A DNA stretch of 11,826 nt. It comes from a virus. Its lineage: Duplodnaviria > Heunggongvirae > Uroviricota > Caudoviricetes. The stretch is from the IMG/VR virus record IMGVR_UViG_2778261065_000019. One strand, 5' to 3'. This document shows positions 2,059-2,493 of the stretch, piece by piece (position 1 is the first letter of the stretch; the number at the start of each line of letters is the position of its first letter). The position numbers and the translations under genes are program-made. The notes under the pieces are model-generated. The model saw only the letters and a list, made by a program, of their open reading frames with translations, was not told where the DNA came from and made no database searches.

Positions 2059-2493
2059 TTACTGTTCTGTATCGGCTGATTGCTCCATGCTGGCACGGCG
2101 AACGCTTACTGCATGACGCCACCCAGCCAGAAAGCCAGCCATTTTATTTCGTGCCTTGCTCACATCTTCCGGTGCATAGCCGTAAATCTGCAAACCTTCA
2201 TCAAATCGATGTTCTGTTTCTTCACTGGAGTACTCGTCACGCTCAGATGAAAGCAGCCTGGCAACCATAATTTTTTCCAGCGCACTGGTTTCTACGTGAT
2301 ATCCGATGGTCTCAAAATGGCTTTTACCTGAAGACCAAAGCAATGTATGCCCGATGTGATAACCGCCAGACTTTCCGCGATCCGCATTAAGATAGGGCAT
2401 CCCCTGTTTGGTCCATGCGCGAATAGTGGTTCTGTTTACCTGGAAATGTTCAGCTATTTCCTGCTGGCTTACAAAACAAGCTTTATCAATCAT
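2059..2493 (-). CDS. Nu1-like small-terminase-type DNA-binding protein (144 aa)
   Basis: N-terminus MIDKACFVSQQEIAEHFQVNRTTIRAWTKQGMPYLNADRGKSGG parallels lambda Nu1 (VNKKQLADIFGASIRTIQNWQEQGMPVLRGGGKG). The remaining ~100 residues do not resemble Nu1 as I recall it. SD GAGGT 7 nt upstream of the ATG. Lies between the two cos copies. Confidence 0.7.
   Translation of the reverse strand: MIDKACFVSQQEIAEHFQVNRTTIRAWTKQGMPYLNADRGKSGGYHIGHTLLWSSGKSHFETIGYHVETSALEKIMVARLLSSERDEYSSEETEHRFDEGLQIYGYAPEDVSKARNKMAGFLAGWRHAVSVRRASMEQSADTEQ

What the first reader, a model, noticed from the sequence alone, without database searches (positions are those of the whole stretch)
2059..2493. Nu1-like N-terminal DNA-binding domain fused to an unrelated C-terminus: candidate packaging-specificity factor
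The first ~40 residues parallel the lambda Nu1 winged-HTH that binds cosB, but the remaining ~100 residues do not resemble the Nu1 self-assembly or gpA-interaction regions as I recall them. A satellite-encoded protein that binds the island's own R-like repeats and feeds into the helper large terminase, or that sequesters helper TerS, would explain both this protein and the divergent cosB next to a conserved cosN. E. coli PICIs are known to redirect packaging with an island protein (Rpp) that partners with helper TerS; whether this ORF is related to Rpp cannot be judged from memory.
Basis: partly seen in the sequence, partly recalled or inferred. Interest (0 to 1): 0.7.

Follow-up and report, generated by a model that had tools for sequence, protein, structure and literature searches.

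The report
RppA packaging-redirection protein of a PICI
This gene encodes a 95%-identical copy of RppA, the already characterised protein with which E. coli phage-inducible chromosomal islands capture the helper phage's small terminase and redirect DNA packaging to themselves, so the finding is real but not new.

Summary
The ORF at 2059-2493 (minus strand, 144 aa) is real. It is an allele of RppA (c1503 of island EcCICFT073): 137/144 residues are identical. It is homologous along almost its whole length to the crystallised RppC (PDB 6HLK/6HN7; E 6.5e-31, family profile E 6.6e-43). All four residues shown by mutagenesis to matter (R21, T22, L51, F121) are present.

Similarity to lambda Nu1 is confined to the N-terminal winged HTH (aa 8-56, 33% identity). 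The C-terminus is the Rpp dimerisation/TerS-clamping domain, not a Nu1 domain.

One detail is probably wrong. The AACCGGACAT repeats lie in the island's second cos site (cos2, downstream of rpp). Published cosB swaps show that RppA-TerS acts through cos1, the site just upstream of rpp.

I also found that cos2, with all three repeats in the same positions, matches the genuine cos of PhiR12-type lambdoid phages and prophages. There it sits directly upstream of their own Nu1-family terS, a type present in at least 1141 of 5426 complete E. coli genomes. The repeats are therefore most likely that phage lineage's R elements.

Verdict: already known, low interest. The cos2 observation is a modest side lead.

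The parts
2059..2493 (-). rpp gene (RppA-type allele), 144 aa plus stop codon
   Evidence: ORF. 137/144 residues identical to CFT073 C_RS07025 / WP_000565609.1 (c1503, RppA). RppC 6HLK E 6.5e-31. The exact protein is on 137 public contigs, named 'hypothetical protein'.
2302..2493 (-). Codons 1-64: N-terminal winged-HTH DNA-binding domain that mimics the lambda TerS DNA-binding domain. Contains R21/T22 (recognition helix) and L51 (TerS heterodimer interface).
   Evidence: Domain limits are taken from the RppC structure as described in PMC6739421. Residues checked. Lambda Nu1 aligns only here. These columns are invariant or nearly so across 15 family members.
2062..2301 (-). Codons 65-144: C-terminal helical region homologous to RppC alpha4-alpha6 (homodimerisation coiled coil plus extra TerS contacts). 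Contains F121.
   Evidence: The family profile aligns with RppC up to residue 143. F121 is present. Its role is known from the RppA F121R mutant. No similarity to Nu1.
2583..2594 (-). cosN of cos1: the 12-nt cohesive-end sequence GGGCGGCGACCT. The rpp ATG lies at bp 102 counted from its first base.
   Evidence: Exact match. Geometry. Equivalent to 'EcCICFT073 cos1' in Fig. S1A of PMC6739421.
2614..2629 (-). cosQ-like element of cos1 (TTTGCGGGTCCTTTCC; lambda has TTTACGGGTCCTTTCC)
   Evidence: Sequence. cosQ definition from Fig. S1A.
2413..2552 (-). cosB of cos1 (bp 43-182 from cosN). This is the segment equivalent to the one whose transplantation made packaging RppA-dependent. It includes the proposed R3-PICI (2530-2547, AGGTGCCACCACCACCAC) and the first 27 rpp codons.
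   Evidence: Limits derived from the chimera primers in the supplement and mapped. R3-PICI proposal from PMC9026076. Differs from CFT073 at bp 45, 53, 91, 128, 153 and 158.
1844..1855 (+). cosN of cos2, inverted relative to cos1 and downstream of rpp
   Evidence: Exact match. Equivalent to 'EcCICFT073 cos2'.
1808..1823 (+). Degenerate cosQ-like element of cos2 (GTCGTCGGGTCCTTCC)
   Evidence: aligned with PhiR12_1 and cos1.
1894..1990 (.). cosB of cos2: three 10-bp R-like repeats, ATGTCCGGTT (1894-1903), AACCGGACAT (1951-1960) and AACCGGACAT (1981-1990), at bp 51-60, 108-117 and 138-147 from cosN. This is a phage-type cosB, probably not the Rpp target.
   Evidence: Same sequence and positions as in the cos of phage PhiR12_1 and of prophages in E. 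coli EC2, clone D i2 and O157:H7, directly upstream of their terS.

Best explanation
The ORF encodes an RppA-type 'redirecting phage packaging' protein of an EcCICFT073-like cos-type phage-inducible chromosomal island.

Proposed mechanism, shown experimentally for RppA and RppC and inferred here by homology: Rpp homodimerises through its C-terminal helices (F121). Each protomer's N-terminal winged HTH takes the place of one TerS DNA-binding domain and pairs with the DNA-binding domain of a lambda-type helper TerS (L51 interface, plus extra contacts from alpha4-alpha6). The hybrid DNA-binding unit no longer recognises the phage cosB, which blocks helper packaging. Through the Rpp recognition helix (R21/T22) it instead recognises the island's own cosB at cos1, which lies directly upstream of rpp and overlaps its start (about 2413-2552). 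The TerS C-terminus still brings TerL to cut the lambda-like cosN (2583-2594). Island concatemers are then packaged into helper capsids, starting at cos1 and running through rpp.

The AACCGGACAT repeats at cos2 are most likely the R elements read by the TerS of a different, very common lambdoid prophage lineage, not by Rpp.
For: - Identity: 137/144 residues match RppA of CFT073, and 96% DNA identity extends over the whole cos2-rpp-cos1 module.
- Family: phmmer hit to RppC 6HLK/6HN7 at E 6.5e-31 over aa 2-125. A profile of 15 family members hits RppC residues 1-143 at E 6.6e-43.
- Key residues: R21, T22, L51 and F121 are present and invariant, or nearly so, in the family. Their roles were shown by RppA mutants R21A/T22A, L51D and F121R.
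- Context: rpp ATG at bp 102 from cosN of cos1, the layout described for rpp islands. The gene sits in an island with integrase, primase, SSB and capsid/decoration homologues, syntenic with EcCICFT073.
- Published genetics and structures (PMC6739421): RppA binds TerS, blocks lambda and phage 80, is needed for island transfer, and acts through the cosB of cos1 but not that of cos2.
- cos2: its cosB is shared with genuine phage cos sites next to a Nu1-family terS.
Against: - Nothing was tested on this allele itself.
- It differs from RppA at seven positions: K18Q, R59H, L60F, A62T, R64G, F77V and S107A.
- Position 77 corresponds to RppC H77, which contacts TerS I57. Positions 59-64 lie at the end of alpha3, which contacts alpha6 of the partner subunit (Tables S2/S3). 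Affinity or helper range could therefore differ.
- cos1 differs from CFT073 at bp 45 and 53, within or beside the proposed R3-PICI.
- Direct DNA binding by any Rpp has never been shown in vitro, and the exact binding site is only a proposal.
- My AlphaFold monomer model had low confidence (pLDDT 56.7) and adds no independent structural support.
Confidence: 0.93

Rival explanations
1. One reading: the protein binds the AACCGGACAT R-like repeats (cos2) and directs the helper terminase to that site.
For: The repeats are real. They sit at lambda-R3/R2-like distances from a conserved cosN (bp 51-60, 108-117, 138-147), and the gene lies next to them. Rpp has a Nu1-like wHTH.
Against: In EcCICFT073 the cos2 sequence is identical to the window's in all three repeats (only bp 46 and 67 differ). 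There, only cos1's cosB gave RppA-dependent transfer, cos1 but not cos2 is required for transfer, and deleting cos2 increased transfer. The repeats are conserved in genuine phage cos sites upstream of the phages' own terS, while the spacers between them diverge. That pattern marks them as the R sites of that TerS. The DNA-binding domain of that TerS shows no significant similarity to the Rpp DNA-binding domain (29% over 31 aa, E 0.05).
Confidence: 0.04
2. It is a true small terminase subunit (Nu1 family) of the island that works directly with helper TerL, as SaPI TerS does.
For: PHROG 57 'terminase small subunit' E 4.4e-8. RefSeq annotates some related islands with a 'terminase small subunit'.
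Against: All terminase hits cover only the HTH (aa 7-46). Pfam Phage_Nu1 is below threshold (14.7 against 30 bits). There is no counterpart of the Nu1 oligomerisation or TerL-binding regions. Helper terS is still required for EcCICFT073 transfer.
Confidence: 0.02
3. It is an ordinary MerR/Xis-like HTH transcription regulator of the island with no role in packaging.
For: Many generic HTH Pfam families give weak hits on aa 6-45. The RppC fold resembles MerR proteins.
Against: All those hits are below Pfam cutoffs. Full-length homology to RppA/RppC, conservation of the TerS-interface residues, and placement within a cos site all point to Rpp.
Confidence: 0.01

Closest known systems
RppA (c1503, WP_000565609.1) of E. 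coli island EcCICFT073; Fillol-Salom et al. 2019, Mol Cell (PMC6739421)
   Same: Same length (144 aa) and 95% identity. The same functional residues are present (R21, T22, L51, F121). The gene order cos1-rpp-cos2 is the same, with 96% DNA identity, and the island architecture is the same.
   Different: Seven substitutions: K18Q, R59H, L60F, A62T, R64G, F77V and S107A. cos1 differs at bp 17, 24, 45 and 53. The island carries a different integrase, and its closest relative sits at a different chromosomal site (next to tRNA-Pro/yejM rather than roxA...phoQ).
RppC (PDB 6HLK; complex with lambda TerS 1-98, 6HN7)
   Same: Homologous over essentially the whole protein (E 6.5e-31, profile E 6.6e-43). 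Shares the wHTH plus three-helix dimerisation architecture, with conserved DNA-contact positions R21, T22, T23, R25, W27, K29, K41 and interface residue L51.
   Different: Only about 41% identity. RppC is 153 aa. Dimer-interface residues are poorly conserved, and RppA and RppC do not heterodimerise. RppC R30, K39 and R43 are Q30, R39 and G43 here.
Lambda gpNu1 (TerS; Pfam PF07471; DNA-binding domain structure 1J9I)
   Same: The N-terminal winged HTH is of the same type (33% identity over 49 aligned positions). The gene lies just downstream of a cosQ-cosN-cosB site, like nu1.
   Different: There is no Nu1 oligomerisation or TerL-binding domain, the Pfam score is below cutoff, and the recognition-helix residues differ. 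It acts by replacing one TerS DNA-binding domain in a heterodimer rather than as a terminase subunit.
SaPI packaging hijack in Staphylococcus (SaPI-encoded TerS plus Ppi)
   Same: The outcome is the same: helper packaging is blocked and satellite DNA is packaged preferentially (Discussion of PMC6739421).
   Different: SaPIs use two proteins and pac-type headful packaging. Rpp does both jobs with one protein at a cos site and still needs the helper's TerS.

Membership tests
Rpp (redirecting phage packaging) proteins of Gram-negative cos PICIs | Full-length sequence homology to characterised RppA/RppB/RppC | tested here: met
   95% identity to RppA. RppC E 6.5e-31. Family profile against RppC residues 1-143, E 6.6e-43.
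Rpp (redirecting phage packaging) proteins of Gram-negative cos PICIs | N-terminal winged HTH resembling the lambda TerS DNA-binding domain | tested here: met
   Met at the sequence level. Aa 8-56 align with Nu1 3-44 at 33% identity, with weak hits to 1J9I, 7LW0 and 6HN7_B. Not confirmed by my own model, which had low confidence.
Rpp (redirecting phage packaging) proteins of Gram-negative cos PICIs | Recognition-helix residues R21/T22, needed for cos1-dependent island packaging | tested here: met
   R21 and T22 are present and invariant in 15 homologues. Their role comes from the RppA R21A/T22A mutant.
Rpp (redirecting phage packaging) proteins of Gram-negative cos PICIs | TerS-heterodimerisation residue L51 and homodimerisation residue F121 | tested here: met
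   Both are present. Their roles come from the L51D and F121R mutants.
Rpp (redirecting phage packaging) proteins of Gram-negative cos PICIs | Gene immediately downstream of a cos site with lambda-like cosQ/cosN and a non-phage cosB | tested here: met
   cosN at 2583-2594 (-), cosQ-like element at 2614-2629 (-), rpp ATG at bp 102, and cosB reading AGGTGCCACCACCACCAC instead of lambda R3. This matches cos1 of Fig. S1A.
Rpp (redirecting phage packaging) proteins of Gram-negative cos PICIs | Encoded in a PICI (integrase, AlpA-type regulator, primase-replicase, no full morphogenesis module) | tested here: met
   Integrase at 10585-11826, primase at 6092-7846, SSB, capsid E and decoration D homologues, and no terminase, portal or tail genes. 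Syntenic with EcCICFT073.
Rpp (redirecting phage packaging) proteins of Gram-negative cos PICIs | Physical binding to helper TerS, interference with the helper, and requirement for island transfer | not testable with these tools
   Shown for RppA and RppC in PMC6739421. Inferred here from 95% identity.
Lambda Nu1-type small terminase (Pfam PF07471 Phage_Nu1) | Pfam score above the gathering threshold | tested here: not met
   14.7 bits against a cutoff of 30, covering only profile positions 3-32 of 164. The control TerS of PhiR12_1 scores 67.9 bits.
Lambda Nu1-type small terminase (Pfam PF07471 Phage_Nu1) | C-terminal self-assembly and gpA (TerL)-binding regions | tested here: not met
   No alignment beyond aa 56 with lambda Nu1 or with PhiR12 TerS.
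Lambda Nu1-type small terminase (Pfam PF07471 Phage_Nu1) | Adjacent large-terminase gene | tested here: not met
   No terL-sized ORF or annotation in the window or in the syntenic islands.
MerR / generic HTH transcription regulators | Pfam family hit above the gathering threshold | tested here: not met
   HTH_28, HTH_17, MerR_1 and similar families all score 12-18 bits, below their cutoffs of 21-28.

The most novel reading that the evidence does not exclude
The island carries two packaging sites for two classes of helper. cos1, together with Rpp, hijacks lambda-, phage-80- and phage-21-type TerS. cos2 is a captured copy of the complete cos of the very common prophage lineage whose TerS is WP_000235436.1 (PhiR12-type), including three R elements at conserved distances from cosN. 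Those phages could therefore package the island directly, without Rpp. Islands and these phages also recombine at cos. In the closest relative of this island, the phage cosB plus the first nine terS codons have replaced the cos1 cosB and the Rpp DNA-binding domain. This would revise the published statements that no phage cosB and no repeated R sequences are present in EcCICFT073-type islands.
Probability: 0.5. Interest if true: 0.4.

Novelty: already known. Interest (0 to 1): 0.15.

Why it matters
The Rpp mechanism was published in 2019 with genetics and crystal structures, so this finding adds nothing conceptually new. It has practical value for annotation. The exact protein occurs on at least 137 public contigs, and its 90% cluster has 229 members. 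Nearly all of the members listed are named 'hypothetical protein', and no Pfam family covers them, so the genes could be named. The side observation on cos2 suggests that these islands can exploit a second, very common class of lambdoid helper by plain cos mimicry. If so, that would widen the expected helper range and transfer potential of virulence-associated E. coli PICIs.

Tried and rejected
- **AlphaFold2 on a 15-sequence family alignment.** The model had low confidence (mean pLDDT 56.7; the wing and alpha3 were not modelled). The Foldseek search of the PDB with it returned nothing at E <= 0.001. I used neither as evidence.
- **Pfam.** No family above threshold. PHROGs gave only an HTH-limited terminase hit.
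- **Promoter/terminator scan of 1400-2750.** At background level and uninformative.
- **Literature search for 'PhiR12'.** No relevant paper, so the biology of those phages is unknown to me.
- **Is the AACCGGACAT cosB that of CFT073's resident helper prophage?** Rejected. That prophage has a lambda/21-like TerS (53% identical to Nu1) and different R-like motifs.
- **Is the island a capsid-forming PICI?** Rejected. It has only capsid E and decoration D homologues, with no portal, protease or terminase, and EcCICFT073 is packaged in phage-sized capsids.
- **Megablast with the 131-bp cosB.** It found only 129 genomes. This undercounts the phage type because the spacers diverge. The cos+terS query found at least 1141 genomes.

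Full report
**1. The observation**

The window has an ATG-to-stop ORF of 144 codons at exactly 2059-2493 on the minus strand. A GAGG Shine-Dalgarno-like motif precedes it.

Similarity to lambda gpNu1 exists but is confined to the N-terminus.
- BLASTP aligns aa 8-56 with Nu1 residues 3-44 at 33% identity, and aligns nothing further.
- Pfam Phage_Nu1 scores 14.7 bits against a cutoff of 30, covering only aa 8-37.
- PHROG 57 (terminase small subunit) matches aa 7-46 only.
- The lambda Nu1 DNA-binding-domain structures give E values of about 0.04-0.2.

**2. What the protein is**

A search of PDB sequences gave one strong hit: 'Redirecting phage packaging protein C (RppC)', entries 6HLK and 6HN7, E 6.5e-31 over aa 2-125. 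A profile built from 15 database homologues aligns with RppC residues 1-143 at E 6.6e-43. The C-terminal part is therefore not an orphan sequence. It is the Rpp dimerisation domain.

The 1.3 kb around the gene is 96% identical to E. coli CFT073. The CFT073 gene in that position, C_RS07025 / WP_000565609.1, lies in the EcCICFT073 island and is 137/144 identical to the window protein. It is c1503, named RppA by Fillol-Salom et al. 2019 (PMC6739421).

The four residues whose mutation abolished function in that paper are all present: R21/T22 (DNA recognition), L51 (pairing with TerS) and F121 (homodimerisation). They are invariant or nearly so in the family.

The exact window protein is already in public databases on 137 contigs. 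Its 90% cluster has 229 members, and nearly all of those listed are labelled 'hypothetical protein'.

**3. Context**

The window is a whole PICI, syntenic with EcCICFT073:
- integrase, 10585-11826
- a small HTH regulator
- primase, 6092-7846
- SSB
- homologues of lambda capsid protein E (3429-4484) and decoration protein D (3082-3417)
- the module cos1-rpp-cos2, followed by a c1504-like ORF

Two exact copies of the lambda cohesive-end sequence GGGCGGCGACCT flank rpp in inverted orientation, at 2583-2594 (-) and 1844-1855 (+). Comparison with Fig. S1A of the 2019 paper assigns the upstream site to cos1. Its cosB reads ...CCGAGAAGGTGCCACCACCACCAC... and runs into the rpp coding sequence, with the rpp ATG at bp 102 from cosN. 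The downstream site, which carries the AACCGGACAT repeats, is cos2.

**4. How it works**

These steps are shown for RppA and RppC and inferred here by homology.
- Rpp is a homodimer held by its C-terminal helices.
- Its wHTH occupies the place of the second TerS DNA-binding domain, forming a TerS-Rpp2-TerS complex.
- This complex stops recognising the phage cosB, which is the interference.
- It gains recognition of the island's cos1 cosB, which is the redirection. TerS is still needed, probably to bring TerL.
- In cosB-swap plasmids and in a phage-80 chimera, only the cosB of cos1 gave RppA-dependent transfer.
- Deleting cos1 reduced island transfer, while deleting cos2 increased it.

**5. What the repeats are**

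The three exact 10-mers lie at bp 51-60 (inverted), 108-117 and 138-147 from the cos2 cosN. This layout resembles lambda's R3 (49-64), R2 (109-124) and R1 (151-166).

A search of phage genomes found window 1812-1990 at 92% identity in phages PhiR12_1 to _5, between the lysis genes and the Nu1-family terS. All three repeats occupy the same positions there, and terS starts at bp 196.

The same cos+terS unit (TerS WP_000235436.1) occurs at 80% coverage or more in at least 1141 of 5426 complete E. coli genomes, including O157:H7 prophages. Among these prophages the spacers between repeats diverge, whereas the 10-mers stay nearly invariant. That is the pattern expected of protein-binding R elements.

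This TerS has a Nu1-like C-terminal part (46% identical to lambda; PF07471 at 67.9 bits). Its N-terminal DNA-binding domain shows no significant similarity to lambda Nu1 or to Rpp.

CFT073's own neighbouring prophage has a lambda/21-like TerS and a different cosB. [quoted passage not shown]

My reading, which is an inference, is that cos2 is a captured helper-phage cos serving a second class of helper without Rpp.

**6. Allelic differences**

Relative to RppA the window protein has K18Q, R59H, L60F, A62T, R64G, F77V and S107A. Position 77 corresponds to RppC H77, which contacts TerS I57. Positions 63-64 of RppC contact alpha6 of the partner subunit. RppB, which is functional, appears to carry V at position 77 in a machine-read copy of Fig. 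S1C.

cos1 differs from CFT073 at bp 17, 24, 45 and 53. cos2 differs only at bp 46 and 67, outside the repeats. These changes might tune helper range or site specificity, but nothing here tests that.

**7. A related island**

The closest relative of the whole window is E. coli MFDS1022581, at 97.7% identity over 88% of the window. It has a rearranged module. The cos1 position keeps the cos1-type cosQ flank but carries the PhiR12-type cosB with all three repeats. This is followed by the first nine codons of the phage terS, fused in frame to Rpp residues from about 79 onwards, giving an annotated 69-aa 'hypothetical protein'. It looks like a recombinant between the island and such a phage, and it lacks the Rpp DNA-binding domain.

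**8. Verdict**

It is a near-identical allele of a protein whose function, partners and structure were published in 2019. Novelty is 'already known' and interest is low. The only new element is the origin of cos2, a modest lead that still needs experiments.

Noticed in passing
window 1808-1990: cos2 (cosQ-like element, cosN and three AACCGGACAT-type repeats) is about 92% identical to the genuine cos of phages PhiR12_1 to _5. The same repeats, at the same distances from cosN, occur in prophages of at least 1141 of 5426 E. coli genomes, directly upstream of TerS WP_000235436.1. The published papers say that no phage cosB or repeated R sequences are recognisable in this island type.
   Followed up: yes
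L001:4092-4520 (E. coli MFDS1022581, the island closest to the window): A chimeric packaging module. It has the cos1-type cosQ flank, then the PhiR12-type cosB with three repeats, then the first nine codons of the phage terS (MATQTEVAR) fused in frame to Rpp residues from about 79 onwards. This 69-aa ORF lacks the Rpp DNA-binding domain. It suggests island-phage recombination at cos.
   Followed up: partly
window 3082-3417 and 3429-4484 (minus strand): The island encodes homologues of lambda head decoration protein D (PF02924, 67 bits) and major capsid protein E (PF03864, 172 bits), but no portal, protease or terminase. [quoted passage not shown]
   Followed up: no
window 1498-1779 (minus strand): A conserved 93-aa ORF (c1504-like, MTEAELLRLIRR...) lies just beyond cos2. 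It has no Pfam family. It is kept in CFT073 and in the MFDS1022581 island.
   Followed up: no
window 2620-2652 (minus strand): A strong hairpin followed by a T-run (GGCCGGAGAAATCCGGCTTTTTT; about -17 kcal/mol for the 43-nt stretch folded) abuts the cosQ of cos1. It looks like the terminator of the upstream capsid operon. If so, rpp would need its own promoter inside cos1. The consensus scan found only one weak candidate there (2518-2489).
   Followed up: partly
window 2542-2550 and rpp codons 18, 59-64, 77: Relative to CFT073, cos1 differs at bp 45 and 53, within or beside the proposed R3-PICI. Rpp differs at K18Q, next to the recognition helix, at F77V, a TerS-contact position in RppC, and in a cluster at 59-64. 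This may be co-variation of protein and site, or tuning of helper range.
   Followed up: partly
window 10585-11826, compared with L002:21498-22727: The packaging module is 96% identical to that of EcCICFT073. The integrase differs, however, and the closest relative is inserted next to tRNA-Pro between yejO and yejM rather than between roxA and phoQ. The islands appear to be modular mosaics.
   Followed up: no
window 8588-9859 (minus strand): A 423-aa GTG-initiated ORF with no obvious features spans a region where related islands are annotated with several small genes, some frameshifted, including an Icd-like gene. It is probably not a real gene. I did not examine it.
   Followed up: no
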